A DNA stretch of 64,000 nucleotides from Candidatus Woesearchaeota archaeon (lineage in GTDB: Archaea > Nanobdellota > Nanobdellia > Woesearchaeales > JABIAG01): contig JABIAG010000001.1 in NCBI GenBank assembly GCA_018653365.1, positions 698,231-762,230 of the forward strand. The letters run 5' to 3'. A model generated the notes under the pieces. The model was not told the DNA's origin, did no database searches, and was given only the letters and a program-made list of their open reading frames with translations. Positions within the stretch are counted from its first letter, which is position 1. Each line of letters begins with the position of its first letter. This document shows, in pieces, positions 20,836 to 53,540 of the stretch. A program made the translations under genes and the position numbers.

Positions 20836-20877
20836 TCCTCCAAAGTTTTTCAACTACTGAGAACTTTGGAATGGCAG
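20836..20877 (-). promoter_or_regulatory. 5' leader hairpin sequestering the GGAGG RBS of the LAGLIDADG gene
   Basis: Minus strand CTGCCAT-TCCAAAGTT-N14-AACTTTGGA-GGA...ATG; near-identical copy at 53500-53540. Confidence 0.7.
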
Positions 20878-21131
20878 TATAAAAAGAGACTCAACTAGCG
20901 AAACTGCTCTTAAACTTTTAACTTAAGTGACCACAGAGTGGGAAGAGTTTAAGTTGGGAGTTTTGCGCGAGGATCTTTTTCCAAAAGAATCAAAATTTAT
21001 TTATAAACCTGGCGTCAGGACCTGTCCAGTGACCAATGGTTTAAGTATGAAAAATTTCCGGTTTGGCCAGTGGTTTTTTCCACAATTTAAGCAAAAAATT
21101 AAAATAGTTAAGAAAAAAACAGAGATGGAAA

Positions 21132-21329
21132 ATGAAAATACTGGAAAACTTAGGATTGAAAAAGCAGAATCTAAACTCAAAAGAGTATGCCGCTGCTGTT
21201 AAAAGAAAAGACATGCAAATAAAGCAGTTAGAAAGAGATAAAGAAGTGCTAAGAACCACATTATTAAAAAAAGAAAGAGAAATTCTAGAAATGAAAGACA
21301 TCCTCAAAAAAGCTCAAAAATCACTATAA
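21132..21329 (+). CDS. small coiled-coil protein
   Basis: 65 aa, K/E-rich heptads. Confidence 0.55.
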   Translation: MKILENLGLKKQNLNSKEYAAAVKRKDMQIKQLERDKEVLRTTLLKKEREILEMKDILKKAQKSL

Positions 21330-21396
21330 GCACAGTATCTACTAGCAAGGGACAAATACCAATAATGCTTATAAATAGTTCTTTGTTCTTAACAAT

Positions 21397-23889
21397 ATGC
21401 CTAGAAGAAAAACCAATACAGTTGAAGAAATCATAGAATTTGTACTAGAACATGAAGGCCCAGATCTGGATGGATGTGCCCACCCAACTAAGAGAAGAGT
21501 TATGTTTGCTGAGTTAGATGAGGCAATAACCCACATTCACGAGATGGCACTTCTGCCGAACTTAAGAACGTATCATTTTAATAGCGTTATGTCGATTTGG
21601 AAAACGGATAAAGAATCAGGCAAACCTTTAGCAAGAGAACTTACAGGATTGTTAATGGATAGAATGCTACAAAGACACCGCACACTACTAGACGTAATAA
21701 AAAATATCAAACAGGAAGATTTCAAAAACGAACAATTCAAATTTGAAACCAAAGACGGAACAATACAATATAACTTAAGGGCAATGCTGGGAACTGCGTA
21801 TGCATCTTCACTAAACGCAGCAGTAATGGACTGGATAACACACAATCCTAATGCAGAAATAAGAACAGAATACGCAGGAATAAAACCATGGCACTTCGGA
21901 AGAGTTCCAAATGGTACGTGGGAAGGGGAAAAAGGAAAACAAAACGCAAGAGAAGCAACAGGACAACTAATAGCAAAACTACAACAAAGACACGGAACAT
22001 TACTAGAGGTAATACAACATATTACCTCAGACCACTTCAAAAATGAGCAACTTGAATTCACCAACAAAGATGGAACACTACAATACAATTTAGCATCAAT
22101 GGCACACCACGTTTATCAAGGTTCACCAAGTGCAGCAGTAATAGACTGGATAACACACAATCCTAATGCAGAAATAAGAACAGAATACGCAGGAATAAAA
22201 CCATGGCACTTCGGAATGGCCCCCCTAGGAACATGGAAAGGAAAACAAGGAAAACAAAACGCAAGAGAAGCAACAGAATTGTTAATGGCTAGAATGCTAC
22301 AAAGACACAGCACACTACTAGATGTAATAAAAAACATAAGCCAAGAAGACTTTCACAAACCTCTCGAATTCACAAACAAAGACGGAACACTACAACATAA
22401 CTTAAGGGCAATGCTCCGAATGGCTTATCTGAGTTCACCAAGTGCAGCAGTAATAGACTGGATAACACACAATCCTAATGCAGAACTAAAAACAGAATAC
22501 GCAGGAATAAAACCATGGCACTTCGGAATGGCCCCCCTAGGAACATGGAAAGGAAAACAAGGAAAACAAAACGCAAGACAACTAACCGGACAACTAATAG
22601 CAAAACTACAACAAAGACACGGAACACTAATAGAAGTAATAAAAAACATAAGCCAAGAAGACTTTCGCAAACCGCTCGAATTCACAAACAAAGACGGAAC
22701 ACTAAGGCACAATGCCCAAGCAATGTTTGAAGTCGCCTATAACAGCTCACCAAGTGCAGCAGTAATAGACTGGATAACACACAATCCTAATGCAGAAATA
22801 AGAACAGAATACGCAGGAATAAAACCATGGCACTTTAAAAAATCCCCCCTAAGAACATGGAAAGGAAAACAAGGAAAACAAAACGCAAGACAACTAACCG
22901 GACAACTAATACAAAAACTACACAAAATATATGGAACATTAACAGATATCATAACACACGTAACGGCGGAGGACTTTCACAAAGAACGACTTGCATTCCA
23001 AAATAGAGATGGAGTAATAACCCACACCATTGAATCAGCTTTCTGTGAAGTTTACCGAAGTTCACCAAGTGCAGCAATACTGGACTGGATAAAACAGCAA
23101 CCAGAACGAGTAAGAGCCCAATATTCTTTTGTAAAACCGATACATTTTGTTGGAACAGCCCGAACTAGGGCAAGAAGACTGGCAGGAAAACTAAGCCCAT
23201 ATGATTTAAGATCGGTAAAAAAACAAAATACATATGATACTTCAGTATTTGGATTTAAACAATATCATTCTAGTGATAAAGATGTAATGCGCTGGATCAT
23301 GGCTGAAGAAGCAATAAAAGTGTTGGGAGATAGAGACGTTAGATATCTGGGCTTGGAAACCGAACAATTTAGAGGCATATCTGCAGTTTATGACCAACTA
23401 AATCTTAATAGTTTTAGATCAACTGTTATTGAAAGAGATCCCAGAGTTTATAATGCCATGCTAGCGGTGAAACAGAGAGTCCGAAGCAAACCAGGCAAAG
23501 CGGTAAGAGGAACCCAGATCATTAACGGCCAATTAGCGGAAGAGGTAAGCAAAATACGAGGGCGAAGATACAATTATGTCAACTATGATTTCCAAGGATT
23601 CCTAAGCAAGGGTAATGTGCAGGCAATAGAAACCTTATTTCGAAAGGAATTACTTACAAAAAAAGCCATAATTTATGTTACTTTACAAGAAACTCAACTC
23701 GCCAAAAGCCGAGCTAAAAAAGCTGGATTTGAAGACCAAGTAAGTGCATTAAATCAATTAATGCAAGACCAGAGTTCAACACACACCTGTAAACAAATGT
23801 TCACCCTAGATTATCAAGGTGGAACTACAGATAGACATAAGACCCCCATGATTGTTGTAGGTTATGAAGTTACAAGACTTGCAGCATAA
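21397..23889 (+). CDS. tandem-repeat protein (5 x ~104 aa) with C-terminal class I SAM-dependent methyltransferase-like domain
   Basis: Repeat core DWITHNPNAEIRTEYAGIKPWHF...TWKGKQGKQNAR; C-terminal YLGLET, VIERD, VNYDFQG, IIYVTL, PMIVVGYEV in Rossmann strand order. Confidence 0.8.
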   Translation: MPRRKTNTVEEIIEFVLEHEGPDLDGCAHPTKRRVMFAELDEAITHIHEMALLPNLRTYHFNSVMSIWKTDKESGKPLARELTGLLMDRMLQRHRTLLDVIKNIKQEDFKNEQFKFETKDGTIQYNLRAMLGTAYASSLNAAVMDWITHNPNAEIRTEYAGIKPWHFGRVPNGTWEGEKGKQNAREATGQLIAKLQQRHGTLLEVIQHITSDHFKNEQLEFTNKDGTLQYNLASMAHHVYQGSPSAAVIDWITHNPNAEIRTEYAGIKPWHFGMAPLGTWKGKQGKQNAREATELLMARMLQRHSTLLDVIKNISQEDFHKPLEFTNKDGTLQHNLRAMLRMAYLSSPSAAVIDWITHNPNAELKTEYAGIKPWHFGMAPLGTWKGKQGKQNARQLTGQLIAKLQQRHGTLIEVIKNISQEDFRKPLEFTNKDGTLRHNAQAMFEVAYNSSPSAAVIDWITHNPNAEIRTEYAGIKPWHFKKSPLRTWKGKQGKQNARQLTGQLIQKLHKIYGTLTDIITHVTAEDFHKERLAFQNRDGVITHTIESAFCEVYRSSPSAAILDWIKQQPERVRAQYSFVKPIHFVGTARTRARRLAGKLSPYDLRSVKKQNTYDTSVFGFKQYHSSDKDVMRWIMAEEAIKVLGDRDVRYLGLETEQFRGISAVYDQLNLNSFRSTVIERDPRVYNAMLAVKQRVRSKPGKAVRGTQIINGQLAEEVSKIRGRRYNYVNYDFQGFLSKGNVQAIETLFRKELLTKKAIIYVTLQETQLAKSRAKKAGFEDQVSALNQLMQDQSSTHTCKQMFTLDYQGGTTDRHKTPMIVVGYEVTRLAA
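21550..23148 (+). repeat. coding tandem repeat, period 312-315 bp
   Basis: TGGATAACACACAATCCTAATGCAGAA at 21832, 22147, 22459, 22771; degenerate fifth copy at 23086. Confidence 0.95.
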
Positions 23890-23906
23890 GATTTAATAGT
23901 CGAGAA

Positions 23907-24644
23907 ATGCCAAAAAGCTTTATAAGTGGACTGAAAGTTCTAAGAGTTATGACAGACGATTACCGACAGGAACTCCTTGAAAGAGGACTGGACTTAACAG
24001 GATTTGGAGCAGTGATAGAAGTAACAAATGGTTTACGTGATAAAAGAGGAACATTTAATCATACAAGAGATCATAAATTAGAACAAGCTGTTTTGTGTCG
24101 TGACTACCTAAGACAAACCCTTCAACCCGAAACAAGACTTGATGTGGGAATTGCCTACTGTACAGATAAAGAAAGATCCCAACGACAACTAACCCCTGAC
24201 TTTACAATAAAAGCAATTGAATTTGATCTACCCACATTACGATCTGCGCTTGAAAGCATAACTCTAAACAGAACTTCACGTCAAGAGGTAAGGGTATTGG
24301 CAAGAGCAATGCTATTAAATGCTGGTCGAAACTTTCCATTACAAAAATTCTTTGAACCAAATGAAGGCCAAACAAAACAGGCAGCAAGAAAAATCGGCAT
24401 GCCCTTTCGCCAATACATGATAAACCGTACCAAACTTAGAGGAGTTGCAGCAGAAAGATACTTGTATAATGCCCTAATGCAAAGATTAGATTTTTGTTTG
24501 CCTGTTCATGGATTCAAATTTAAAGAGGGGAAAGTTCCAAGAGAGGCAGACCTGGTAATTGCATGTCACCAGCAAAACTTTTACGATACATTAAGAAATC
24601 TAAATCAACAAGGATGCTTTGGCGTAAAAGTTAATGCAGAATAA
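23907..24644 (+). CDS. hypothetical protein with C-terminal PD-(D/E)XK-like segment
   Basis: RGVAAERYL...GFKF...READLVI resembles the restriction-endonuclease-fold core, but the ExK is not evident. Confidence 0.45.
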   Translation: MPKSFISGLKVLRVMTDDYRQELLERGLDLTGFGAVIEVTNGLRDKRGTFNHTRDHKLEQAVLCRDYLRQTLQPETRLDVGIAYCTDKERSQRQLTPDFTIKAIEFDLPTLRSALESITLNRTSRQEVRVLARAMLLNAGRNFPLQKFFEPNEGQTKQAARKIGMPFRQYMINRTKLRGVAAERYLYNALMQRLDFCLPVHGFKFKEGKVPREADLVIACHQQNFYDTLRNLNQQGCFGVKVNAE

Positions 24645-24645
24645 A

Positions 24646-25164
24646 CTACTTCTTTAATTTAGACTTAATAGCTTTATCAGAAATAATAGCACTATTACCA
24701 CTTGGATCTTCAATAGTTATCTTAACCTTATCACGACCCCAAAGAACTCTTTGAATCTTCTTCAACATATTCTTACACTTTTTCTGAACTGTTGGATCCT
24801 CATCAGAATCACGCATGGTTTGAACAGCATCCTTCGCACGCTCCAAAAGCCCCTCAACATTAGTTATGTACCCATTAGAAGCAGGGCCAGGCTCCATGGT
24901 AATGATATGAGGAATTTTAACAGTAGCTTCAGAAGACTTAACAACTCTTATCTTCAAATCTTCTTCAGAATCTATCTCAATAGAAAACTTAGCAGGTTCT
25001 TGCTGTGCTAAAGCCTCAATATCAGATTTTTTGAAACCACAATCAGAACAGATCATAGAAAATATAGCTAGCTTACCAAAAAAAGGCACTTCTTGTTCAT
25101 CTTCCATTAAAGTCAAAGTATTCTTCTGACAAATCGGGCAAGGTTGTTTTGTTAATTGTTCCAT
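24646..25164 (-). CDS. ZPR1 zinc-finger protein
   Basis: CPIC ... CSDCGFKKSD, ITNVEGLL, IEDPSGNSAI. Confidence 0.93.
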   Translation of the reverse strand: MEQLTKQPCPICQKNTLTLMEDEQEVPFFGKLAIFSMICSDCGFKKSDIEALAQQEPAKFSIEIDSEEDLKIRVVKSSEATVKIPHIITMEPGPASNGYITNVEGLLERAKDAVQTMRDSDEDPTVQKKCKNMLKKIQRVLWGRDKVKITIEDPSGNSAIISDKAIKSKLKK

Positions 25165-25199
25165 TTTTATCAGTAGATTTAATAGGTTTAAAAAGATTA

Positions 25200-25586
25200 T
25201 TATTTCAAATTCCTAGTTTGACTCCTACCCCTGTCTAATTCATCCGTTTGTTGCTTATATTTCTCAGTAACATGATTAATTTGAACAAACAACATGTAAA
25301 TAAATAAAGCAACCATGATTAATTCGAAGACCGCATTAAACCATCTTGGAATTGCACTCTCAGAAATGATATTAAAAAATTTTAGGGCAGTAATCAATTC
25401 TTCTAAGATAAAAACAGATAATGCAGAAAGTAAATAATACCAGGGTTTGATGAAAACCTTATTGTGATTCATCTTAATAGAAATTAGTGCAATTAGAAGA
25501 CCAAATGCAATAACACTAAACGCTAAATTATAAAGAGGAGCAATCTTACCCACACAAGCAATAGCACCACATACCATCAGGAACAC
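25200..25586 (-). CDS. small multi-TM membrane protein (paralog of neighbour)
   Basis: Three TM helices; 'PWYYLL..F.LEE' resembles the neighbour's 'AWKSLM..FAIVE'. Confidence 0.6.
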   Translation of the reverse strand: MFLMVCGAIACVGKIAPLYNLAFSVIAFGLLIALISIKMNHNKVFIKPWYYLLSALSVFILEELITALKFFNIISESAIPRWFNAVFELIMVALFIYMLFVQINHVTEKYKQQTDELDRGRSQTRNLK

Positions 25587-25885
25587 GCCCTCGCTTTAGT
25601 TACCCAAATCTGTTGAATAATTGCAATAATCATAAAAATTAAAACGAAGGAAGGAATAATATGACGCATATAATTTATTTCTCTCCAAATATTAAAGGCA
25701 TCCAGAACTCCCACTATCTCAACGATAGCAAATAAAACAAGAACCACCATTAAACTTTTCCAAGCAACCAATTCAGGATTTTTTCTAGAAACTCTAAATA
25801 GTGTTAAAGAAATAAGACCCGCAGCAATAGCAAGAAATACAACGGTAAGCTGTAACACCCCAATATAAAACAGTACCTCAACCAT
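25577..25885 (-). CDS. small multi-TM membrane protein
   Basis: Three hydrophobic helices. Confidence 0.65.
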   Translation of the reverse strand: MVEVLFYIGVLQLTVVFLAIAAGLISLTLFRVSRKNPELVAWKSLMVVLVLFAIVEIVGVLDAFNIWREINYMRHIIPSFVLIFMIIAIIQQIWVTKARACS

Positions 25886-25958
25886 GGAAGAACTAGTGAA
25901 AAACTAGTATATAAATGTTGTGAAATAACTTTATATATGATTTCCACCACAATAAAAC

Positions 25959-26414
25959 ATGGAATACGCAGATGCAAGAAAATATAATCGGCTAAGAAAA
26001 GATGAACAACTCAAAAAAGCCAGAATCATATTTAACGAATTAGGAAATGAAAAAACACTAGATGTCGGGTGTGGAACAGGCATAAGCAGTAAACTATTTT
26101 CTAACGTAATGGGAATAGACCCAAGTAAAGAACTAATTGCAATGAATCCCGGCCAGTGCACTTTAGGAAGGGCGGAAGAACTTCCATTCAAAGACAACTC
26201 ATTTGAAAACGTAATCTGTGTTACAAGCATCCACAACTTTGAAGACATACAAAAAGGATTAGAAGAAATAAAAAGAGTTGGAAAAAGATTTGGATTTAGT
26301 ATACTAAAAAAAAGTTCTAAATTCGAAATGATTGTTTCTAAAGTAAAAGAATTATTCAAAATAGAAAAAGAGATAGATGAAGGAATAGATTTAGTGATTA
26401 TTTGTGAAAAATAA
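25959..26414 (+). CDS. class I SAM-dependent methyltransferase
   Basis: LDVGCGTG, GIDPS, AEELPFKDNSF. Confidence 0.9.
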   Translation: MEYADARKYNRLRKDEQLKKARIIFNELGNEKTLDVGCGTGISSKLFSNVMGIDPSKELIAMNPGQCTLGRAEELPFKDNSFENVICVTSIHNFEDIQKGLEEIKRVGKRFGFSILKKSSKFEMIVSKVKELFKIEKEIDEGIDLVIICEK

Positions 26415-26451
26415 CTGCTCCCCCCATAGCTAATAGCATAATCTTTATAAT

Positions 26452-27273
26452 GTGACTTTTGATCCCATTCTTATGAATATTGAAAAAGCATTATTTACAT
26501 ACCTCCAAGAACATCACAAGACAAGCCTAACTACATTCTCAACCACAGAAGATGCAAGATTTGAACGTGAACACGTATACGAACGCGTAGAAGAACTAAC
26601 AAAAGGATTTGAAACTGCAACACGCAGAAGAAAAAGGTTTTTAGGACAAGCATTCAATACAGCATATAGGGTGGCAACATCAGCAACAATGGGCTGTTGG
26701 GCAGGAATGGTGCGAAGTCTCATAACTAACGAACCCATGCAAAATGCGGTATTTGAAGGAGCAATTTATACTGGCGCAACTGCAGCCTTGTTAAGTTGTG
26801 CCCATCAACTCAGCTCTAGTTTACTTAAAGAGGTGCACAGTGTGGGCGTAACTCTTTCTAAAGAAGCTACAAACGAACAAAGAGCTGTTGTTGAAAGACT
26901 ACAAAACGCATTAACACTAGTAGTCAATACTAACACCGATCCTGAATTGGCATCGCGACTCAAAACCCTGGATTATCTTCAAAACCCACCCCCACAAGAT
27001 TCCAAAGTAGCACATTTTATACAAGGCTCATTTGCATATGCCATCATTGCGATTCCCGCAGAGATCATTGGAAGATCCCTGTTTCCCGCTCTTTCAGTAA
27101 TTGTTGGGGGCGGACTTGAAAATTCATTCACAAAGAGCATGTCTGCAATAATAGAAACAAAAAGAAGGAGAACATTTAATCAAGAAATAGGACCACTCAC
27201 ACAATTAGAACGAAAACAACTTGCTGCCGGACTAATTCACCGATGGTATGATGAAATATTAAGAACTGCTTAA
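26452..27273 (+). CDS. hypothetical membrane-associated protein
   Basis: 273-aa ORF with Gly/Ala-rich hydrophobic hairpins. Confidence 0.55.
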   Translation: MTFDPILMNIEKALFTYLQEHHKTSLTTFSTTEDARFEREHVYERVEELTKGFETATRRRKRFLGQAFNTAYRVATSATMGCWAGMVRSLITNEPMQNAVFEGAIYTGATAALLSCAHQLSSSLLKEVHSVGVTLSKEATNEQRAVVERLQNALTLVVNTNTDPELASRLKTLDYLQNPPPQDSKVAHFIQGSFAYAIIAIPAEIIGRSLFPALSVIVGGGLENSFTKSMSAIIETKRRRTFNQEIGPLTQLERKQLAAGLIHRWYDEILRTA

Positions 27274-29198: not shown

Positions 29199-29238
29199 AA
29201 ACTTAAATAAACAGAAGTGGTATTTAAAAGTTATTGCT

Positions 29239-30699: not shown

Positions 30700-30733
30700 G
30701 ATATAACTTTAGAAAAATGGAATATAAATGTTT

Positions 30734-31150: not shown

Positions 31151-31229
31151 ACAATTATTAAGAAGAGGTTATTTAAATAGTTTTCTAAAGACAATAATCT
31201 TTAAATAGTTCACAATATTACTTAATACC

Positions 31230-32486: not shown

Positions 32487-32530
32487 ACAAACCAGATAAT
32501 TTAATAAGTATTTAAATTTATCTGCACTAC

Positions 32531-33217: not shown

Positions 33218-33261
33218 ATCATCATAAAGTTTTTATATTAAGAGATAAATAATACTAAAAA

Positions 33262-41791: not shown

Positions 41792-41925
41792 TTTTAATCT
41801 TAATCTTTTTGTGTTTATTAACTTTTTTATTTAAAATTTTATTAATTTTAAGAATCCAATTACTGTGCAATTCCATAGTAAAATATATAAACAACTAATC
41901 CAACATAATATAAAAGGGGTGAATA

Positions 41926-44592: not shown

Positions 44593-47500
44593 CTACTTCT
44601 TAACAAAACCACTAAAGAAATACTTGCCATCAGGACCTTTCTCAAAAACATGATTGTCTTGAACAATTCTACTTGGAGAAGACTCCGAAGCAGACTCATT
44701 AACCTTGAAATGTAAAGCAGGCTCAAAAAACATGCCTCCTCGATTAACAAATTTAGGATTTGAAACACTGCCCACATTCTGAATAACAGTAGAAGAAATA
44801 ATCGACACCATACGTTTACCTTTCTCACTTAACATCTCAGACTCCATTGCTTTAGCCTTAATCTTCTTTATTTGATCGCTCTGAGTGGCAGCTTTAAGCT
44901 GTTTTAAAATCACTTTTTGATACCTTCGCAAAGTCCTTTGTGTACGTGCATCCTCTCCTTCTTGAATTGTGTAAAAGAAAACACCAATTAAATTACCCGC
45001 TTTATCAAACGCAAACTTGCTTTTGTATGCATAGCCTTTTCCCAAATGTCCTATTGCTGATCGTTCAGTGACTTTTGCAATCCATTCAGCAATATTATCT
45101 AAGTTCTTACTTGCCTTACGTCCCTTCCAATTATTAACCGAACAACTAAGTAAAACAACATTACCATTAGGTTTCATGAAGTTTTTAACCTCTCCAAAAA
45201 CATCTTCATCAGAACGATCCAAAATTGCTTCATCAACTTCAGGCATTTTCTTAAATGCTGCAATCGCCTCATCAATCTGCTTATCAGAATGCAAGCCAGG
45301 ATATTCTAAAGGATGAATTTGTCTCAACTCTTTCCGGAACTTTTTAAGATCTCCCAAAGTTATTGAAGATGGCGAACCATGACCTGCAAGAAACAAATGA
45401 GAAATTTTTCCTCGAAGTTCAGATTCATAGCGTTCAAGCATTTTTAAAATTTGAGAATCCTTACCAACAGAAAAGAATAAAACATTATGTGATTTATTAA
45501 GACTGCTCCAATCCATACCCTCAAAAGCACCCGTGTCATCAGATTCAGCTAAAAAAACAACACTAATTGGACGATTATCACTAAATAAAACCCCTGTTTC
45601 TTTTTGATGTTCCCGAATTAAAATTTGTGTTTTTAAAACATCCAAAGATAATTTATCCGCATTTACTTCCCCCTTTAAAACATCTCTTCGAGAAATATAT
45701 GCGTTAAACTCTTGAATCTCACTCAATAAGCGATCAGAGTCTACCTTAAGTAAAGCAGTTTTTCCTCCATACAATTTACTAACCTCTTCACCAACATCAA
45801 TACCTGAATCAATAGCAGATTCTATCTTCTTCCACTTAGAAGGTTTAACAAACATTGCAGTCTTAAAAAGTGAATCTGAAACCTTCTTCGCTTCAAAACC
45901 CTTGTCAAAAAACAACCGTTTAAGATTTCTAACTATTCCTTTAAATTTAAAATGATGTATTTCTTTTCCTGCATTGAATTCATTAAACCGTTTCCAAAAA
46001 TCAACTGCATCATCTTCGTCCATAAACTTCTGAACCGGAACATAAAAAAGCTTAAAAGAACCCCCAATTCCAAGAGAAACAAACTCACTAAAAAAGAATA
46101 TTGCGTTTGCAGAATTAGCCTTCTTAGCAAGACTTGGAAACCTACGATACAAAAAAGCAAGTCTCTGAAAAAGACGCAGACTTAAAGGACCAGGAGTAAA
46201 ATTTTCTTTTTTTAATAAACCCAACTCATTAAGCTTTAAAGCTGCTTTAACAACTGGCTCATCCCAGGATTCAAGTGCTTTAGCCTCAGCAAGGGAGTCT
46301 CTCTGCTTCTTAACAAAATCAAGGTACCATTTTTCATTCTCATCCGTCTTTTCAGCCTCTTTTTCCCACCAGTCTTTAACCTCAGCCAACTTATGTTGAA
46401 GATTCTCAATGCTAACACTCACAGAACCAATATCCTTCAGATTCTTTGAAGTAAGCATTTCCAAAGTAACCTGCACTAAAAGTACATAATCAGATTTACT
46501 CATTGAACTCTTAAGTTTTGACCACTCAGCTCCTTGTAGAATTGTCTTCTCTGCAAATGCCACACCATAAGTATGAGACAATTTAAACTTCTCAACATTC
46601 CTAGTTACATCCAAGGTTTGATCAACCTCTCTTACAGGAACAGACATTTCTTCTAACTCTTTAAGAAGTTGTAACAAGTAATCCTTTTTTTTAGAATCCC
46701 CTGCTTTAACAACCTTACGCAACTTAGCAATCCTAGCCTTAAAAGCATCAAGCTTATTCCCTTTGGAAATAGTCTCCAACTCAACCTGCATAGAAGAAAT
46801 CTGAGAAACAACATCAAAATCAACAGAAGAAGGACGAGCAGTCATAGGACCCAACAAAGACGAAGCAACAACACCAGTACGAACCAAATTCTTAATCAAA
46901 CCATTAGTCGCACCAACCATACGCTCAACAACACCCCACTCCTTCTTAGCAGTACGCCACATTCTACGCTTAATCTTTCTTAACGCAGAATCCTCAACAA
47001 CCTGCATCTTAGAAAACTTTGCCAACGCAGCATCATCCTGCTTTAAATCTTCAGAAACTAATTCATCTTGAGAAGCAAATACCTTCAACAACTTATGCTC
47101 AACCTGAAAAACATAATAAATAATTTGTTCACTCACCTCAGCACGAGAAAAAAGAAAACCCACCAACTTACTAAAATCTTTCTTAAACAAAGACAAACTC
47201 TGACGAAGCTCATCAGACTTTTTACCACCAAATTTTCTCAAAATACCAATATGCTTTGCTAAAACCTCTGAAATAGAACTCACATGACTATCCAACGCCC
47301 TCTTTTTACGTTCCCTGCGCTTAATTCGCTTCTCCAACCCCGAAACTGAAAGCAAAGTTAATTGTGAAAGAAGACTTCTATTCCTATGACGAACCTTTCT
47401 AAAATCCGAAGAAACATCTTCAAGAATTTGTTCAACCTCAAACAAAACCATCTCAAAACCATTAGTCAACTCAAGAATCAATAACTGCAAAACTGGACGC

Positions 47501-47847
47501 AACTCCGCAAAATCAGACCTTTCAGACAACTCCTTAAGCGAAGACAAAAACCCCTTCAACAAATTAAAAGGAGCTTCAACATCACTTTCCAACGCCACTT
47601 CTTCATTTAAAGCAATAGCCTTTAAAAATCCAAGAACCTCCAACAACAACTCATTACGATTTTCCAAACTAACAAAAAGCGTTTCAACCTTCTTTTTCGC
47701 AACATCAACAGACTCACCAGGAATCTTATTAGCCAACTCCTTGACAACAGCCAAAGTATCATCCAACTCTGAACTAGCCTTTATTGCCCGCCTAGCCTTA
47801 ATAAAACTCTTACGATCTAAACGCTTAGAACTACGTTGCCTAGCCAT
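44593..47847 (-). CDS. large coiled-coil protein with internal hydrophobic segment and C-terminal caspase-fold (DUF4347/C80-like) peptidase domain
   Basis: HLFLAGHGSP and VVLLSCSV His/Cys dyad; D-x-TGAF motif upstream; start uncertain. Confidence 0.6.
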   Translation of the reverse strand: MARQRSSKRLDRKSFIKARRAIKASSELDDTLAVVKELANKIPGESVDVAKKKVETLFVSLENRNELLLEVLGFLKAIALNEEVALESDVEAPFNLLKGFLSSLKELSERSDFAELRPVLQLLILELTNGFEMVLFEVEQILEDVSSDFRKVRHRNRSLLSQLTLLSVSGLEKRIKRRERKKRALDSHVSSISEVLAKHIGILRKFGGKKSDELRQSLSLFKKDFSKLVGFLFSRAEVSEQIIYYVFQVEHKLLKVFASQDELVSEDLKQDDAALAKFSKMQVVEDSALRKIKRRMWRTAKKEWGVVERMVGATNGLIKNLVRTGVVASSLLGPMTARPSSVDFDVVSQISSMQVELETISKGNKLDAFKARIAKLRKVVKAGDSKKKDYLLQLLKELEEMSVPVREVDQTLDVTRNVEKFKLSHTYGVAFAEKTILQGAEWSKLKSSMSKSDYVLLVQVTLEMLTSKNLKDIGSVSVSIENLQHKLAEVKDWWEKEAEKTDENEKWYLDFVKKQRDSLAEAKALESWDEPVVKAALKLNELGLLKKENFTPGPLSLRLFQRLAFLYRRFPSLAKKANSANAIFFFSEFVSLGIGGSFKLFYVPVQKFMDEDDAVDFWKRFNEFNAGKEIHHFKFKGIVRNLKRLFFDKGFEAKKVSDSLFKTAMFVKPSKWKKIESAIDSGIDVGEEVSKLYGGKTALLKVDSDRLLSEIQEFNAYISRRDVLKGEVNADKLSLDVLKTQILIREHQKETGVLFSDNRPISVVFLAESDDTGAFEGMDWSSLNKSHNVLFFSVGKDSQILKMLERYESELRGKISHLFLAGHGSPSSITLGDLKKFRKELRQIHPLEYPGLHSDKQIDEAIAAFKKMPEVDEAILDRSDEDVFGEVKNFMKPNGNVVLLSCSVNNWKGRKASKNLDNIAEWIAKVTERSAIGHLGKGYAYKSKFAFDKAGNLIGVFFYTIQEGEDARTQRTLRRYQKVILKQLKAATQSDQIKKIKAKAMESEMLSEKGKRMVSIISSTVIQNVGSVSNPKFVNRGGMFFEPALHFKVNESASESSPSRIVQDNHVFEKGPDGKYFFSGFVKK

Positions 47848-47950
47848 CCACAAAGAAACAAGTTCAACAACCATACACGACATCAAACAAACTAGTATTT
47901 AAATATTGTTATCCAAAACCATTATAAACTAAGTGTGAACACCTTTAAAC

Positions 47951-48385
47951 ATGGAAAACTTATGTCAACTAGAAGGAATGAGCTGTTTTGGATGCTGTGG
48001 AAATAGTTACAAAAGCGTTAAAGAAATCAAAGAAGACATTAAACAGAACACTGCAGAATTTAAAGAATGTGTTAGTTTAGAAGACTTTCGAGACAGATCT
48101 GGGAAGTGGGATTTACGAGAAAGCGGAGTGTGCAGAAACGTAATAGAAAATGAGGGCAAAATATTCTGTCCATTACACCCAAAATTTTGTGGTACTGAAT
48201 TAAGAGAGGATCATTGCGAACCAGAATATTTATGTAAAACATTTAAGGCATTTCAAAACTGGAAGGATAAGAAAAAACAAGAGTTTATCACATTCATAAA
48301 ATCCAAAAAACTAGATAGTTACAGATATTCCATATTAATGGATGCAAACAAATTATTAGACGAATTTAATGAGAAAACAATATAA
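47951..48385 (+). CDS. Cys-rich (YkgJ-like) hypothetical protein
   Basis: SCFGCCG, VCRN, CPLHP, C-x4-C. Confidence 0.7.
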   Translation: MENLCQLEGMSCFGCCGNSYKSVKEIKEDIKQNTAEFKECVSLEDFRDRSGKWDLRESGVCRNVIENEGKIFCPLHPKFCGTELREDHCEPEYLCKTFKAFQNWKDKKKQEFITFIKSKKLDSYRYSILMDANKLLDEFNEKTI

Positions 48386-48407
48386 ATAGTTCTAAATTTC
48401 CTGCTAT

Positions 48408-48779
48408 ATGCAGATAAGAAGAAGAGTAGCAAACTACTTATGCGGAACAGATGCTGAAGAACTAGCTAAAGAATGCACACAGCGAATAAATAACGCAATT
48501 CCCGTTAAAAGAAAGCGAATGTTCGAAATTGAGGAACTTGAAACATTAGAATTCTGGGCAACTAGAATGTTACCCAACTTAGTAACTTTAGGATCAATCG
48601 CATGTGGAAATTTGAAAGGAATCATGTTAAGTGAGGTAACCAGACATTATGGAAGCAAAGCTATTCGATGGTGGATGGAAAAAACCGCAACACGTTATGA
48701 ACAAATGTATGGTCCACTTAATAGAAATGAATTACCCGCACCACAATATCCTGGAACAAGCTTTTCTAAAAAATCTTAA
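48408..48779 (+). CDS. hypothetical protein
   Basis: 123-aa ORF with an upstream TATAAATA box. Confidence 0.5.
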   Translation: MQIRRRVANYLCGTDAEELAKECTQRINNAIPVKRKRMFEIEELETLEFWATRMLPNLVTLGSIACGNLKGIMLSEVTRHYGSKAIRWWMEKTATRYEQMYGPLNRNELPAPQYPGTSFSKKS

Positions 48780-49480
48780 CACTTAATCTTGCCGCCTTGC
48801 CAATCTTTTAGAACTAATCTTGCTGCACTTCTTGTATCAGGTAGGCCTTTCTTCAAAAGAAACTGACGCTTAATAGCCAACTCTTCCAAATCTTTTACTC
48901 CGTAATGATGTAGTAACCTAGGAAACTTTTCCAACAAATCATAAAACGCATCTTCAGGATCTTTAACCTTAGAAAAATCAACACTACCCTTCATGATACT
49001 TTCATCCTCCCGATAAGGAATAACTCCAGGAGTGTCAACCAACATAAACTGTTTAGCAGAAATATTCTGCTTACCCTTAGTAAAACCAGAAGAAGAAGAA
49101 GTCTTCGCAGAACCCCTGCCGTTTAAAGCATTAATAACAGAACTCTTACCAACATTGGGATAACCAAGAACTCCAACCAAAGGCTTTTCAACCTTTAATC
49201 GCTTACCCTCAATAATTATCATCTCTTTTAACTTCCTAATTCCATGATATTCCTTAGAAGAAACAAAAACTGCTCTTTTGAAACGTCGTTTAGCCAGTTC
49301 TAACACTGATTTATGTACTAAATCACACTTGTTTAAAACATAAATTAGGGGTTGTTTAACCTTATTAACGATTTCTTCATTAATAGTTTCATCAATATTC
49401 CTTGCATCCAACACTAATAAGATTATATCAGACTTTCTTAATACCTCATTAACAACTGTCCAAAAACGTGCCATAACCAA
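48776..49480 (-). CDS. circularly permuted RbgA/YlqF-family GTPase
   Basis: DAR, NKCD, GYPNVGKSS, DTPG. Confidence 0.93.
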   Translation of the reverse strand: MVMARFWTVVNEVLRKSDIILLVLDARNIDETINEEIVNKVKQPLIYVLNKCDLVHKSVLELAKRRFKRAVFVSSKEYHGIRKLKEMIIIEGKRLKVEKPLVGVLGYPNVGKSSVINALNGRGSAKTSSSSGFTKGKQNISAKQFMLVDTPGVIPYREDESIMKGSVDFSKVKDPEDAFYDLLEKFPRLLHHYGVKDLEELAIKRQFLLKKGLPDTRSAARLVLKDWQGGKIKC

Positions 49481-49505
49481 TATTTAACTAAGGATACTTT
49501 TATAG

Positions 49506-50165
49506 TTAACTGTTTGATAGATTAAAACTCTTAAAAACAAAATATTTGAAATCATCAGAAGAAAAATTCAGATAACCCACATCAATCGAAACGGGTTTAG
49601 ACTTACCAATAGGCAGTTCAGTTTTAAAAAGTTGAATTAATTCTTTAATTTCATCCTTAGATTTACTTTCTAAAAAACGAGCAACAGTGATGTGAGCACC
49701 CCAAGGCAGTCTAAATTCCATGCCTTTTTTTGATGCTTGATTAACAATCTGTTCAACAACCCCATAAAAAGCAGAATTAGGTTTTCCCGCAGCCACCCCC
49801 GCATCTTGATTTAATAACCAACAATCATAATCAACAACAACCCGTTCCAATAATGGCAAGCAGCCCTCAACAACTTCAGACAAACGCTCTAACATTTTCG
49901 TATCACATACAAAATCGTCTTTGGCTTGAAAAATAATAATAGTTGTATGCGCATTACTTTTGTCATATTTAATCGAACGTACTAGTTTAGAAACCTTATT
50001 TGAAAAGTCCATTATTTTATTGGTTATTTCATCTGAATGACGAAAAGCAATCATATATGCGCCTTGTCTGTGACTTTTTGGAACTACGCCTTTATCGCTT
50101 TTAATAAATGCCTTAAAACTCTCATATATCCCATCTTGCTGCTCAAGAAAACTTTCAAAACTCAT
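49506..50165 (-). CDS. 2H phosphoesterase-like protein
   Basis: AHTTI and AHITV motifs; probable start MSFESFL. Confidence 0.65.
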   Translation of the reverse strand: MSFESFLEQQDGIYESFKAFIKSDKGVVPKSHRQGAYMIAFRHSDEITNKIMDFSNKVSKLVRSIKYDKSNAHTTIIIFQAKDDFVCDTKMLERLSEVVEGCLPLLERVVVDYDCWLLNQDAGVAAGKPNSAFYGVVEQIVNQASKKGMEFRLPWGAHITVARFLESKSKDEIKELIQLFKTELPIGKSKPVSIDVGYLNFSSDDFKYFVFKSFNLSNS

Positions 50166-50220
50166 GAGTATATGAATTAAAGATAGTTTATAATGCTTAT
50201 GATATATTTTAAAAAGAAAT

Positions 50221-50238
50221 ATGGCCCCGCGGAACTCC
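50221..50238 (-). repeat. duplicated 3' end of tRNA-Ile (att-like scar)
   Basis: ATGGCCCCGCGGA followed by ACTCC equals the tRNA 3' end with the T-loop deleted. Confidence 0.6.
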
Positions 50239-50322
50239 AAACCAAGGGTCTTGTTCCTTGATCCCGCCACCAAGTACGATCTCATTACATTCAATCGCAC
50301 GAAAAAACAAAAAAAAGAAAAA

Positions 50323-50396
50323 TGGCCCCGCGGAGATTTGAACTCCGGACCTTTCGATTATCAGTCGAACGCACCACCAGACTATGCTACAGGGCC
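50323..50396 (-). tRNA. tRNA-Ile(GAT)
   Basis: GGCCCTG TA GCAT AGTCTGGTG GTGC G TTCGA CTGATAA TCGAA AGGTC CGGAG TTCAAAT CTCCG CGGGGCC A; no encoded CCA. Confidence 0.96.
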
Positions 50397-50529
50397 AATG
50401 AATTATAGGCTTGACGAACAACGCGAGGAAACCTATTTCGACGTCAACTAACGAAACGGTTGCCAGGGTGTGCTACTTAAGCTGTAATAAGAGAAAAACT
50501 AGGTTATTTTATAAATATTGCTGTTAAAC

Positions 50530-51544
50530 TTAACCAAAGAAAGAAACACCAGGATTACAAAACGCGGGACTCATACCAGAAGGCACGTAAGGCATTGCTC
50601 CACCAACTGCAAAACCTACAAGAGGGGTTCTATGACCAAAAGCAGCATTCCACTGATATGGTAACTCATCCAAATCAAGCATTCTTCTCTCCTTAGACGA
50701 ACCAGTTAATTCAGAAGTTAACTTGCCTCCTTTATGAACTACATCAGGACCTTTATTTTGAGGACGTCTAAAATGAGATTGAATATCAGAACCAGGTGTT
50801 GATGATACTTCATTCTGAATACATTAAAAAATGAGCAAGATCATAATTTGAAACACTTTCTCCAGCACTAGTAACCCAACCAACATCTGCCCTAGTATAT
50901 GGATGCCACATACCATCTAACTTTAACATAATAAATCTTCCAGGCTTAACAGCATTTAAAGCCGGAATTGCACTTCTATAAGAAGTATCTTGAGGTTGTT
51001 TTCCTTTATTAACCCAACTTACCATGGTTCTGTGAAATTCTCTTCCTGCAGCTTTGTCATGATGAGTGTGTTTATCTCTTCTTTTTTGTAAAGGAGAATT
51101 AGATTCAATAATTCGATAAGAACCATCTTTTTGCTTTTTTAACTTTATAGGCAAATAACCCATATCAACAAACCTTACATCTCTTCTGCTCTGTCTTTCA
51201 GCCTCACGTTCATAACTTAAACCACTATGAACCGGGATGAGAGAATGTTCCAGTTCAGTATGATAAGCATTCAGTTCATCTTGAAGAGTATCCGCAGGTA
51301 AGACGTTATCTTTTAATTCTCTTCGCCTTCCAGCCCAGGCCAAAGCAGTTTCACTAGCAAGCTTAGCATCCCTTTGAGTCCAACTAAGCTCTGTTTCTGC
51401 AACTATATCAAACCTAACTTCTTCACGTAACGCAGCATTAAGCTCGTATCTCTCTCGCCTATGAGCAAGAACCTTGTGAACTTTACCAACACTGCCTCCG
51501 CACCTAATAAGGGGTTCTTTTTCTATCGTCATAACTATCAACAA
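50530..51544 (-). pseudogene. hypothetical protein with a single-base frameshift near 50824
   Basis: After HFL, removing one base continues ~97 codons (CIQNEVSSTPG...VSFFG*) with host codon bias. Confidence 0.6.
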
Positions 51545-51624
51545 AAAATAACTTGAGATAGTTTAAAAAGCTTACTGGGAAAAATCAGGTTATTTTATAA
51601 ATATTGCAGTATAAATAGAAAATA

Positions 51625-52647
51625 ATGAAACAAAATAAACATTATTCATACAATCAAAAAAGCATCTGTGACGGGTGTAAATTGTGCGTAAAAGGGAGAA
51701 AATCAGTGATTTTCATAACAGGACTCTGTCCACGTAGTTGTGAATACTGCCCATTATCTGATGAAAAGTACAAAAAAGACGTAATGTACTGTAATGAACG
51801 GAAAGTAAACAAATTAGATGAGATAATTGCTGAAGTAAAGATTTCTAGATCAACCGGTGCAGGAATAACGGGAGGAGATCCACTAGTTAAACTTGGAAGA
51901 ACCGTCGAAATCATTAAGATGTTGAAAAAAAGCTTTGGAAGTAAGTTTCACATCCATCTTTATACCTCTCCAAACCTAGTTACCGAAGATAAATTAAATC
52001 AACTACATAAAGCAGGGTTAGATGAAATAAGATTTCACCCAGATATTGAAAGTGATAAATTATGGAATAAAATCAATGTTGCCAAAACGTTTAACTGGAA
52101 AGTTGGAATAGAAATCCCGGTAATTCCAGGAAAATATACTGAAACCGTTAAATTGATTGAATATTTCAAGTGGGTTGATTTTATCAACCTAAACGAACTG
52201 GAAATGTCAGACGGAAACGCATATGTACAAACAGGCAAATGTAAAGATACACTAAGTTATGCAATAACGGGGAGTAAAGCATTGGCAATGAGACTAATGA
52301 AACGATTTAGTAAGTTACAAATACACTTCTGCACAGCCAAACTAAAAGACAGAGTACAACTAGCAAACAGAATTAAGTTAAGAGCTAAAAGTGTAGCACG
52401 TAAACTGGATTACGTAGATGAAGAAGGACTCATCACACACGGTGAGATTAAAGGAACTGAAAAAGATATGATTGCAATTAAGAAAGAGTTTAGCATTCCC
52501 ACTTCTTTGATTGAGTTTGATGGAATAATAAACATTGCTGCATGGGTATTGTTAGATATTTACAAAGAAATACGTCACAAATGCTATATTGTAAAAGAAT
52601 ACCCAACATATGATAAATTGATTATTGAGAAGGAAGAATTGAAATAA
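51625..52647 (+). CDS. conserved archaeal radical SAM protein (COG2108-like)
   Basis: GCKLCVKG, ITGLCPRSCEYCP, TGGDP, HIHLYT, DEIRFHP. Confidence 0.88.
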   Translation: MKQNKHYSYNQKSICDGCKLCVKGRKSVIFITGLCPRSCEYCPLSDEKYKKDVMYCNERKVNKLDEIIAEVKISRSTGAGITGGDPLVKLGRTVEIIKMLKKSFGSKFHIHLYTSPNLVTEDKLNQLHKAGLDEIRFHPDIESDKLWNKINVAKTFNWKVGIEIPVIPGKYTETVKLIEYFKWVDFINLNELEMSDGNAYVQTGKCKDTLSYAITGSKALAMRLMKRFSKLQIHFCTAKLKDRVQLANRIKLRAKSVARKLDYVDEEGLITHGEIKGTEKDMIAIKKEFSIPTSLIEFDGIINIAAWVLLDIYKEIRHKCYIVKEYPTYDKLIIEKEELK

Positions 52648-52659
52648 AAAATAAAAAAA

Positions 52660-52831
52660 CGCCCCCGGTCAGACTTGAACTGACGACCTAAACCGAAATT
52701 AGTCATTTCTGGCTAATTTTTGCGGTAACTGCTTAACAGATTAACAGCTTCGTGATCTCAAAAGCGAGATTCGCACGCTCTACCTGTTGCTCCGCAGAAG
52801 CGTTAACTCCATACGTCTAAGCTACAGGGGC
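52660..52831 (-). tRNA. tRNA-Asn(GTT) with four BHB introns
   Basis: Exons 52831-52817, 52786-52772, 52748-52742, 52726-52721 and 52689-52660 give a 73-nt cloverleaf GCCCCTG TA GCTT AGCAGGTA GAGC G TGCGG CTGTTAA CCGCA AGGTC GTCAG TTCAAGT CTGAC CGGGGGC G. Confidence 0.9.
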
Positions 52832-52883
52832 AATTATTTTTTGTAGAGCGTGTAGGTCTGAAATAAAGAAAGTTACAATCACT

Positions 52884-53492
52884 TTATAAAATTTTCTGTA
52901 TTTTATTACCTTTTCTATGATGGTTTGATCCTATCAACAACCCCCATTTTTCAAGGTTCTTGAATCCGGGAAGTTCCAACCTTGATGCATTTCCCTTCTT
53001 AGAAATTGAACCATAAAAACCACAATCTTCTAGTTTACTCAATATTTGAACAAGAAACGATTTGGCATTGCTAGTAATCTCAATTCTCGGATAATAAGGT
53101 ATTGTTCTATGTTGTTTACTCAAAACACAACAACCATCCGTATCAAACAAACCCCTTAAGAAATCAAAGAAGAATTGGGAGTTAATCAAGTCATTACCAA
53201 TCTTCAAATTTGAATATTTCTTTCCCACAGGCATACCCCAACTTTTAAAAGTATCAAATATACCTTTATCACTGAATCTTAAAAACAGGGTATTTTCTTT
53301 TTTTCTAAATCCGATGTTAACAGTTTTATTAAAAACTTCTAAGAATAACTTTTTTGTAACCTGAGTATGATACGCAAAATCGTCTAGTTTGTGACCGCTG
53401 ATATAGATTAAGTGTCTATTTCCTGCTCGCGATAAACAGCCATCTCCAAACATGATCCCCAACAGTTCTGCTTTTGCTACATCCATTTTCAT
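52884..53492 (-). CDS. free-standing LAGLIDADG homing endonuclease-like protein
   Basis: AELLGIMFGDGCL and FLRGLFDTDGC motifs. Confidence 0.9.
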   Translation of the reverse strand: MKMDVAKAELLGIMFGDGCLSRAGNRHLIYISGHKLDDFAYHTQVTKKLFLEVFNKTVNIGFRKKENTLFLRFSDKGIFDTFKSWGMPVGKKYSNLKIGNDLINSQFFFDFLRGLFDTDGCCVLSKQHRTIPYYPRIEITSNAKSFLVQILSKLEDCGFYGSISKKGNASRLELPGFKNLEKWGLLIGSNHHRKGNKIQKIL

Positions 53493-53499
53493 TTTATTT

Positions 53500-53540
53500 T
53501 CCTCCAAAGTTTTCACTATTGTAAACTTTGGATTTGGCAG
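53500..53540 (-). promoter_or_regulatory. 5' leader hairpin sequestering the GGAGG RBS of the LAGLIDADG gene
   Basis: Minus strand CTGCCAAA-TCCAAAGTT-N12-AACTTTGGA-GGA...ATG. Confidence 0.7.

What the first reader, a model, noticed from the sequence alone, without database searches (positions are those of the whole stretch)
20836..53540. Two dissimilar free-standing LAGLIDADG genes share an RBS-sequestering leader hairpin
Seen: at 20836-20877 and 53500-53540 (minus strand) both genes are preceded by CTGCCA-N1-2-TCCAAAGTT-N12-14-AACTTTGGAGGA-N7-8-ATG. The 9-bp stem is identical and buries the start of the GGAGG Shine-Dalgarno, and both loops contain CA.TAGT. The proteins (370 vs ~202 aa) have no obvious similarity beyond the LAGLIDADG helices, and neither lies in a recognisable intron or intein. 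Knowledge: RBS-sequestering hairpins restrain phage T4 homing endonucleases. Inference: a family-wide cis-regulatory RNA or a conserved element end for a dispersed LAGLIDADG mobile or regulatory family in this lineage.
Basis: partly seen in the sequence, partly recalled or inferred. Interest (0 to 1): 0.72.

Follow-up and report, generated by a model that had tools for sequence, protein, structure and literature searches.

The report
Shared control leader on selfish nuclease genes
Two unrelated DNA-cutting (homing endonuclease) genes in a tiny marine archaeon share a folded mRNA leader that covers their ribosome-binding site. It is one module of an uncatalogued control cassette found across this archaeal order, used only by selfish nuclease and transposase genes, with a promoter that the host's recombinase gene radA also uses.

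Summary
Both hairpins lie where stated on the minus strand, none is expected by chance, and the genome holds a third copy before a third unrelated LAGLIDADG gene.

The hairpin is the last module of a cassette:
- CACTGGACA boxes, then a TATA box;
- an optional 85-105 nt long hairpin (LH);
- the hairpin that masks the Shine-Dalgarno (SD) sequence, then the ATG.

A covariance model of LH hit 28 of 151 genomes of the order, up to 8 copies each. Fifteen of its 16 modelled pairs show compensatory changes. Most of the 60 genes behind LH are LAGLIDADG-type. Others are IS200 transposases and repeat-bearing nucleases. None matched a housekeeping family.

The masking stem differs between lineages, but the SD stays paired in about two thirds of leaders. 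This points to selection on RNA.

Copy 1 is a roughly 1.5 kb insertion missing from two genomes of the same genus. At copy 2 the gene was swapped behind the same hairpin. In this genome the box promoter also drives an 81-aa gene plus radA.

Most likely function: repression of translation in cis, as in phage T4 homing endonucleases and IS200. No expression data exist. LH looks selected on the opposite strand, which is unexplained.

The scan has reported the same cassette before, in this genome and in others.

The parts
19715..20827 (-). 370-aa free-standing gene: double LAGLIDADG core plus a C-terminal winged helix
   Evidence: ORF. The model at pLDDT 91 matches WhiA, PI-SceI and I-DmoI folds. 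E89 and E174 are conserved in 28 homologues. The family was found in only 2 of 401 genomes of the order.
20837..20870 (-). SD-masking hairpin, copy 1: 5' arm 20862-20870, 3' arm plus GGAGG 20837-20847, ATG 20825-20827
20872..20877 (-). CTGCCA. Its CC can pair with the last GG of GGAGG across a small bulge. Conserved within the genus only.
   Evidence: Folds; comparison.
20881..20980 (-). Long hairpin (LH), 100 nt. It starts about 16 nt after the TATA motif (inferred transcript start region) and ends in U5.
   Evidence: (69.7 bits, E = 2e-11).
20996..21007 (-). TATA box (TTTATAAATAAA)
   Evidence: same position in all copies.
21023..21072 (-). Promoter boxes: CACTGGACA 21023-21031, CATTGGTCA 21030-21038, CACTGGCCA 21064-21072
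19526..21085 (.). Segment missing from two genomes of the same genus (empty sites): box promoter, LH, SD hairpin, gene, and a foreign replacement tail for the host gene (about 19526-19723). The left limit is uncertain, between 19526 and 19634.
21086..21180 (+). Stranded original 3' end of the asparagine-synthase/diphthamide-synthase (Dph6-like) host gene, still close to the intact ends in G254 and G193
   Evidence: host gene domains.
52884..53492 (-). 202-aa free-standing LAGLIDADG gene
53501..53532 (-). SD-masking hairpin, copy 2: 5' arm 53524-53532, 3' arm plus GGAGG 53501-53511, ATG 53490-53492. No LH in this copy.
   Evidence: 94.6% identical to the orthologous hairpin in G254.
53535..53540 (-). 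CTGCCA
53570..53581 (-). TATA box, identical to that of copy 1
53597..53625 (-). Two CACTGGACA boxes (53597-53605 and 53617-53625)
52832..52883 (-). Stub of the 3' end of a different nuclease-type gene (264 aa, HTH N-terminus) that G254 still has at this locus. It marks an ORF replacement.
52660..52831 (-). tRNA (anticodon region CTGTTAA, Asn) with large inserts, directly downstream of the 202-aa gene
   Evidence: Weak Rfam tRNA match with two long inserts; comparison with G254.

Best explanation
The two hairpins are copies of the translation-control module of a modular expression cassette. Selfish nuclease genes carry this cassette throughout this Woesearchaeota-type (DPANN) order.

Cassette layout:
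1. One to three CACTGGACA-type boxes about 12-17 nt upstream of a TATA box. In this genome the same promoter type drives the operon of an 81-aa gene plus radA.
2. An optional long hairpin (LH) of 85-105 nt. It begins roughly 15-25 nt after the TATA box, so probably near the transcript start (inferred), and it ends in a U run.
3. After 8-12 nt, a 9-13 bp hairpin whose 3' arm contains a near-perfect SD, 7-10 nt before the ATG.

Proposed mechanism (inferred, not shown): the mRNA is made from the box promoter, the SD hairpin limits 30S binding, and little nuclease is made. LH with its U run adds a second brake, as an attenuator or terminator or through an antisense RNA. This mirrors the T4 homing endonuclease genes and IS200 tnpA.

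Shown here: conservation, covariation, restriction to selfish genes, gain or loss of the cassette as a unit, and ORF exchange behind it.
For: - Chance is excluded. No shuffle gave a match, and there is a third copy.
- The exact hairpin occurs in at least 11 other genomes of different families. Compensatory variants exist: G-C to C-G in G062 (three copies), G086, G242 and G394, and others in G108 and G219.
- Anchoring on LH instead of the hairpin gives an unbiased sample. The SD is at most 25% unpaired in 38 of 60 leaders. Four different stem types achieve this. The median P(unpaired) is 0.20, against 0.60 for 47 other GGAGG genes of this genome.
- LH: 94.3% of cells are paired, 15 of 16 pairs have compensatory changes, and 0 of 500 shuffles reach any observed measure. 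It was found in 28 of 151 genomes.
- Downstream genes: LAGLIDADG_3 in 34, LAGLIDADG_2 in 6, Y1_Tnp in 5, HNH_repeat in 2. The rest matched only HTH-type domains or nothing.
- Leaders are 70-77% identical within a genome, while the proteins behind them are about 18% identical.
- Empty sites for copy 1 and an ORF swap at copy 2.
- radA sits behind the same boxes.
- Precedents: PMC2988022 and PMC4513863.
Against: - There are no expression data. No RNA run holds this genome.
- In the window's copies the last G of GGAGG is unpaired unless the bulged GCC pairs with it. The stems are only moderately stable, and copy 1 has z = -0.77 against shuffles.
- About a third of LH leaders, including this genome's own contig-2 copy, leave the SD open in the isolated fold.
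- Sequences for the hairpin alignment were picked by pattern, so its sequence conservation is partly ascertainment. Only one stem pair covaries there.
- LH seems selected on the opposite strand, which the simple cis model does not explain.
- Related genomes are not independent samples.
Confidence: 0.68

Rival explanations
1. The leader acts mainly through an antisense RNA, like art200 of IS200. The long hairpin, and perhaps the SD region, would be transcribed from the opposite strand. The sense-strand hairpin would then be secondary.
For: - The reverse strand of LH folds better in 51 of 53 copies (-33.2 against -26.6 kcal/mol).
- In helices P1 and P2 there are 56 A.C cells, which are G.U on the other strand, against 14 G.U cells.
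- One position is A.C in 29 copies and A-U in 18, so pairing is kept only on the antisense strand.
- LH is flanked by an A run and a T run, so it looks like a terminator in both directions.
- IS200 has an antisense RNA opposite its 5' UTR (PMC4513863), and the same LH precedes IS200 tnpA genes in relatives.
Against: - Base composition alone explains -3.7 of the -6.5 kcal/mol difference.
- The SD-hairpin segment shows no strand preference beyond composition.
- No conserved antisense TATA box could be placed.
- T runs in the SD-hairpin loops on the antisense strand would tend to stop antisense transcripts coming from the ORF.
- Copy 2 of the window has the SD hairpin but no LH.
Confidence: 0.2
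2. The shared leader is kept alike mainly by recombination. It would serve as a homology arm or element end for exchanging nuclease ORFs, and the hairpin would be a passenger without a regulatory role.
For: - Leaders are more alike within a genome than between genomes (77/70% against 66/56%), while the proteins are unrelated.
- The ORF was replaced between the SD hairpin and a 3' stub at an orthologous locus.
- The whole cassette is the unit of insertion.
Against: - Gene conversion does not explain compensatory changes that keep the stem.
- It also does not explain four unrelated stem sequences that all pair with the SD.
- LH covariation across families implies selection on structure.
- The two roles are compatible.
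Confidence: 0.1
3. The inverted repeat is a DNA operator for a dimeric regulator, for example autorepression by the nuclease as with I-TevI, and not an RNA structure.
For: - It is a near-perfect palindrome at the promoter-proximal end of the gene.
- T4 I-TevI autoregulates through an operator (PMC2988022).
Against: - The proteins behind it are unrelated, so no common autoregulator is plausible.
- The half-site sequence is free to change provided it stays complementary to the SD arm.
- The spacing varies between 6 and 16 nt.
- The conserved DNA boxes lie elsewhere (CACTGGACA).
Confidence: 0.04

Closest known systems
RBS-sequestering hairpins of phage T4-type homing endonuclease genes (I-TevI, I-TevII, I-TevIII, segB, mobE of Aeh1; review PMC2988022)
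   Same: A consensus SD about 8 nt before the AUG is buried in a stable stem. The device is found on both intron-encoded and free-standing endonuclease genes. It is one layer of multi-layered repression of a potentially toxic nuclease. There is also a variant in which a strong hairpin sits just upstream without covering the RBS (seg43(25)), which resembles type C here.
   Different: In T4 the block is relieved by late promoters inside the hairpin. No such internal promoter is conserved here. The T4 hairpins are individual. Here one homologous leader family, with a second long hairpin and a regulon promoter, is shared by dozens of unrelated genes across an archaeal order.
IS200 tnpA left end and 5' UTR in Salmonella (PMC4513863)
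   Same: There are two inverted repeats in series, a terminator-type hairpin and then a stem-loop that sequesters an almost perfect SD. There is a possible antisense component. In relatives of this genome the same LH plus SD hairpin directly precedes IS200-family (Y1_Tnp) transposase genes.
   Different: In IS200 the terminator lies upstream of the transcript start. Here LH lies downstream of the TATA box. The HEG version has A/U-run flanks and CACTGGACA boxes that the archaeal IS200 version lacks. This genome has no Y1 transposase. There is no sequence relation to bacterial IS200.
Free-standing homing endonuclease cassettes that replace the tail of a host gene
   Same: Copy 1 sits in the 3' end of a host gene. 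It brings a diverged replacement tail and strands the original tail downstream.
   Different: Here the cassette also carries its own regulated promoter and structured leader. The host is an archaeon.

Membership tests
RBS-sequestering leader hairpins of homing endonuclease genes (T4 type) | Consensus SD about 8 nt upstream of the start codon | tested here: met
   GGAGG lies 8 and 7 nt before the ATG. Perfect GGAGG is rare in this genome: 50 candidate genes.
RBS-sequestering leader hairpins of homing endonuclease genes (T4 type) | SD lies inside a stable stem | tested here: met
   Four to five of the 5 SD bases are paired, at -11.7 to -17.7 kcal/mol. The three copies rank 1st, 2nd and 6th of 50. 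Copy 1 alone is not better than shuffles for total energy (z = -0.77).
RBS-sequestering leader hairpins of homing endonuclease genes (T4 type) | Second promoter inside the hairpin that gives an unmasked transcript | tested here: inconclusive
   A TTTTTATA motif sits at the LH end of copy 1 only. It is not conserved in the other copies.
RBS-sequestering leader hairpins of homing endonuclease genes (T4 type) | Hairpin lowers translation in experiment | not testable with these tools
   No RNA or protein data. No RNA run is listed.
IS200-type leader (terminator hairpin + SD stem-loop + antisense RNA) | Two hairpins in series, the second sequestering the SD | tested here: met
   LH plus SD hairpin in copy 1 and in 50+ loci. 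Copy 2 has only the second hairpin.
IS200-type leader (terminator hairpin + SD stem-loop + antisense RNA) | Precedes a Y1 (HUH) transposase | tested here: not met
   No Y1_Tnp in this genome. In relatives a homologous LH plus SD hairpin does precede Y1_Tnp genes.
IS200-type leader (terminator hairpin + SD stem-loop + antisense RNA) | Antisense RNA opposite the 5' UTR | tested here: inconclusive
   The G.U/A.C asymmetry favours the opposite strand. Composition explains part of it, and no promoter was placed.
LAGLIDADG homing endonucleases | Two LAGLIDADG helices with acidic residues on an alpha-beta-beta-alpha-beta-beta-alpha core | tested here: met
   202-aa protein: Pfam LAGLIDADG_3, E = 2.1e-7, with GDG and DTDG motifs in its sequence. 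370-aa protein: fold match to I-DmoI, PI-SceI and WhiA, with E89 and E174 conserved.
LAGLIDADG homing endonucleases | Sporadic presence with empty sites in close relatives | tested here: met
   Copy 1 is missing from G254 and G193 at the orthologous site. Its family was found in 2 of 401 genomes. Copy 2's locus holds another nuclease-type gene in G254.
LAGLIDADG homing endonucleases | Cleaves the empty allele | not testable with these tools
   Needs purified protein and the empty-site DNA.
Any Rfam family | Match to a curated covariance model | tested here: not met
   Nothing over the leaders at gathering score, or at E up to 10 (own loci) or up to 1 (six other loci).

The most novel reading that the evidence does not exclude
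The cassette may be the visible part of an undescribed SOS-like recombination regulon in DPANN archaea. An unknown factor acting on CACTGGACA boxes would switch on radA and, with it, all resident homing endonucleases and IS200 transposases. A conserved hairpin RNA of about 90 nt, read from the strand opposite the leader, would act as a shared antisense brake on these selfish genes.
Probability: 0.25. Interest if true: 0.85.

Novelty: new variant of a known kind. Interest (0 to 1): 0.62.

Why it matters
Masking the ribosome-binding site of a selfish nuclease gene is known from T4 phages and from IS200. What is new here is that one homologous, portable leader family, absent from Rfam, serves dozens of unrelated selfish genes across a whole order of small-genome archaea.

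Three further points add weight:
- It travels with these genes when they insert.
- It stays in place while the genes behind it are exchanged.
- It is wired to the same promoter element as the host recombinase gene radA.

This gives a concrete handle on how genome-reduced archaea tolerate many homing endonucleases. It points to a candidate repair-type regulon in organisms where no such circuit is known. It also provides a clean marker, the LH covariance model, for finding mobile nuclease genes that Pfam misses, such as the 370-aa family.

Tried and rejected
- Rfam: no family covers the leaders.
- RNA evidence: no RNA holder is listed for this stretch.
- Laying DNA contigs of four runs on 17500-23500 gave only short identical pieces. 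No joint crosses the cassette, so this says nothing about empty sites. Empty sites came from related genomes instead.
The genomic context of the 370-aa family's homologues was therefore not examined. The one other hit in the order, in G238, is a truncated remnant without a leader.
- Pattern matches with 2 mismatches are mostly noise. The reversed-pattern control also matches often, so only matches with 0-1 mismatches were used.
- IS200-type mobilisation of the cassette by a resident TnpA is rejected for this genome, which has no Y1 transposase.
- An antisense TATA box could not be placed. There is only a mild A/T-rich rise 20-28 nt from the LH end.
- A relaxed search for box plus TATA (1 mismatch) in this genome adds only chance-level sites: 11 found against 5-11 in shuffles. 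The regulon here is the eight exact-box promoters.
- A T4-like internal promoter is seen in copy 1 only.
- The LH hit in one unpublished genome (G132, locus L075) was left out of all sequence analyses. G132 is counted only in the 28/151 tally. Six unpublished genomes were in the sample and are counted in its tally only. G302 gave only a flank match, which was not used.


Full report
**1. Observation**

Both copies are on the minus strand, at 20837-20870 and 53501-53532, and none of 100 dinucleotide-preserving shuffles gave a match. The minus-strand reading agrees with the description down to the spacings: CTGCCA, a 9-nt arm, a 14- or 12-nt loop, AACTTTGGAGGA, then 8 or 7 nt and the ATG.

The ORFs are 370 aa (19715-20827) and 202 aa (52884-53492). 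They share no detectable similarity (BLASTP E = 0.29).
- The 202-aa protein matches Pfam LAGLIDADG_3.
- The 370-aa protein is below the Pfam threshold. A model built on 28 homologues (pLDDT 91) matches WhiA, intein endonucleases and I-DmoI at probability 1.0. The acidic residues at the ends of both LAGLIDADG helices are conserved.

'Two dissimilar free-standing LAGLIDADG genes' is therefore correct.

The window lies in a 1.09 Mb, 34% G+C genome. Its TATA boxes and earlier notes of this scan identify it as a Woesearchaeota-type DPANN archaeon.

**2. More copies and more modules in the same genome**

The genome holds a third exact copy of the hairpin on contig 3, before a third unrelated LAGLIDADG gene of 248 aa. 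Aligning the three upstream regions shows that the similarity reaches much further. It covers:
- one to three CACTGGACA-type boxes;
- a TATA box (TTTATAAA) about 12-17 nt after the last box;
- in two of the three copies, a roughly 100-nt insert between the TATA box and the hairpin, which folds into a long hairpin, here called LH.

LH also occurs on contig 2 before a fourth LAGLIDADG gene, with a different downstream hairpin.

The 9-mer CACTGGACA occurs 16 times in the genome, in clusters, and sits at a fixed distance from a TATA box at eight promoters. Six of these drive LAGLIDADG genes and one drives a nucleotidyltransferase. The eighth drives an 81-aa gene followed by radA (Rad51 family, E = 4.8e-82).

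**3. Distribution of the hairpin**

I searched 401 genomes of the order with the pattern. The exact hairpin is present in at least 11 other genomes from different families. Variants carry compensatory changes:
- CCAAACTT...AAGTTTGG in G062 (three copies), G086, G242 and G394;
- CCAATGTT...AACATTGG in G108;
- CCAAAGATC...GATCTTTGG in G219.

I examined all 28 places that matched with at most one mismatch in published genomes. Twenty-six are leaders in front of nuclease-type genes. Two are imperfect chance matches inside long ORFs.

This alignment was picked by a sequence pattern, so its sequence conservation is partly ascertainment. Only one stem pair covaries in it.

**4. An unbiased sample anchored on LH**

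A covariance model of LH (R1) behaves as follows:
- It finds only the three known copies in this genome.
- It hits 28 of 151 genomes of the order, with up to eight copies per genome. This tally includes one unpublished genome, which was not used otherwise.
- In a phylum-level sample of 151 genomes, all 12 genomes with a hit belonged to the same order.

On 53 copies, 94.3% of cells are paired and 15 of 16 pairs show changes on both sides. No shuffle out of 500 reaches any of the observed measures, and sliding the partners drops pairing to 38-56%. The alignment is fitted to the model, so these counts lean towards the structure.

LH starts about 15-25 nt after the TATA box, so probably near the transcript start (inferred). 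It begins with an A run that pairs with the terminal U run.

Between LH and the start codon there is nearly always a second hairpin, and its sequence differs between lineages:
- Type A is the window's CUCCAAAGUU/AACUUUGGAG.
- Type B pairs CACCUC with GAGGUG around an AGAUUUCUU stem.
- Type D, on IS200 genes, pairs ACCACCUU with GAGGUGGU.
- Type C has a strong hairpin but leaves the SD free. It includes this genome's contig-2 copy.

The SD is at most 25% unpaired in 38 of 60 leaders. The median is 0.20, against 0.60 for 47 other GGAGG genes of this genome (Mann-Whitney p = 4e-6; the samples are related). Different stems that all cover the SD argue for selection on the mRNA fold and not on a DNA sequence.

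**5. What the cassette drives**

The 60 proteins behind LH match these Pfam families:

| Pfam family | Proteins |
|---|---|
| LAGLIDADG_3 | 34 |
| LAGLIDADG_2 | 6 |
| Y1_Tnp (IS200 transposase) | 5 |
| HNH_repeat (homing-endonuclease-associated repeat) | 2 |

The rest matched only HTH-type domains or nothing, as the 370-aa family does. None matched a housekeeping family.

The IS200 version of LH is clearly homologous to this genome's three-way LH variant. It has a G/C-rich basal helix, no U run and no CACTGGACA boxes. This genome has no Y1 transposase.

Leaders within one genome are 77% (LH) and 70% (the rest) identical, against 66% and 56% between genomes. The proteins behind them are about 18% identical in both comparisons.

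**6. The cassette as a unit of change**

- *Copy 1.* The interval from about 19526 to 21085 is missing at the orthologous site in two genomes of the same genus. The gaps there are 104 and 167 nt instead of about 1.5-1.6 kb. The insertion sits in the 3' end of an asparagine-synthase/diphthamide-synthase fusion gene. It supplies a diverged replacement tail. The original tail is stranded at 21086-21180, still close to the intact tails of the relatives. The boxes, TATA box, LH, SD hairpin and ORF all lie inside the inserted segment.
- *Copy 2.* At the orthologous locus G254 has the same promoter, plus an LH and a 94.6% identical SD hairpin. They are followed by a non-homologous 264-aa gene. In the window a stub of that gene's 3' end survives between the LAGLIDADG stop codon and the tRNA. 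The ORF was therefore replaced behind a retained leader.

**7. Mechanism**

Shown: structure conservation, restriction to selfish genes, and modular mobility.

Inferred: the SD hairpin represses translation initiation in cis.

Two documented systems work this way:
- T4-type homing endonuclease genes have a consensus SD about 8 nt before the AUG, buried in a stable hairpin (PMC2988022).
- IS200 tnpA combines a terminator hairpin with a stem-loop over an almost perfect SD, plus an antisense RNA (PMC4513863).

Sharing the box promoter with radA suggests that nuclease expression is tied to the recombination capacity of the cell. This is an inference, and no regulator is known.

**8. Open point**

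LH looks selected on the opposite strand.
- The reverse strand folds better in 51 of 53 copies. Composition-matched shuffles explain about half of this difference.
- In helices P1 and P2, A.C cells outnumber G.U cells 56 to 14.
- One position alternates between A.C (29 copies) and A-U (18 copies). Pairing is kept through that change only on the antisense strand.

It keeps an antisense-RNA model alive, but I could not place an antisense promoter. The SD-hairpin segment shows no such asymmetry.

**9. Novelty**

No Rfam family matches. Full-text searches found no paper that describes a shared leader on archaeal free-standing endonuclease genes.

The principle is known. The order-wide homologous cassette, its sharing with IS200 and its link to radA are not. 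Earlier stages of this scan reported the same cassette in this genome and in other genomes. The tests here were run independently of those reports.

Noticed in passing
window 52660-52831 (-): The tRNA (Asn-type anticodon region) directly downstream of the 202-aa LAGLIDADG gene carries large inserts. The orthologous tRNA of G254 lacks some of them, and G254 has a different nuclease-type gene upstream. ARAGORN does not call this tRNA, and Rfam scores it just under threshold (27.5 against 29 bits).
   Followed up: partly
G000 contig 1, 101151-102700 (locus L118 421-1776): An 81-aa protein with no Pfam match is followed by radA. Both lie behind three CACTGGACA boxes and a leader in which CCUCC can pair with the GGAGG of the 81-aa gene.
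   Followed up: partly
window 50524-51590: A stretch of about 1.07 kb holding a 244-aa ORF (50810-51544, minus strand, no Pfam match) is absent from the syntenic region of G254, between tRNA-Ile and the radical-SAM gene.
   Followed up: partly
window 53627-53881 (-): An 84-aa ORF matches only the first 58 positions of the 302-position Pfam diphthamide-synthesis (Dph2) model. It is a truncated gene immediately upstream of the box promoter of the 202-aa LAGLIDADG gene.
   Followed up: no
G000 contig 1, 419153-419168 (locus L008): A nucleotidyltransferase gene (268 aa) is the only non-nuclease, non-radA gene in this genome with an exact CACTGGACA box pair and a TATA box.
   Followed up: no
L057 (G086 contig 13): The 3' half of LH plus the first arm of the SD hairpin is tandemly duplicated in one leader.
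   Followed up: no
whole genome: Only about 50 candidate genes have a perfect GGAGG 5-13 nt before an ATG. Strong SDs are therefore unusual here, and the selfish genes are over-represented among them.
   Followed up: partly
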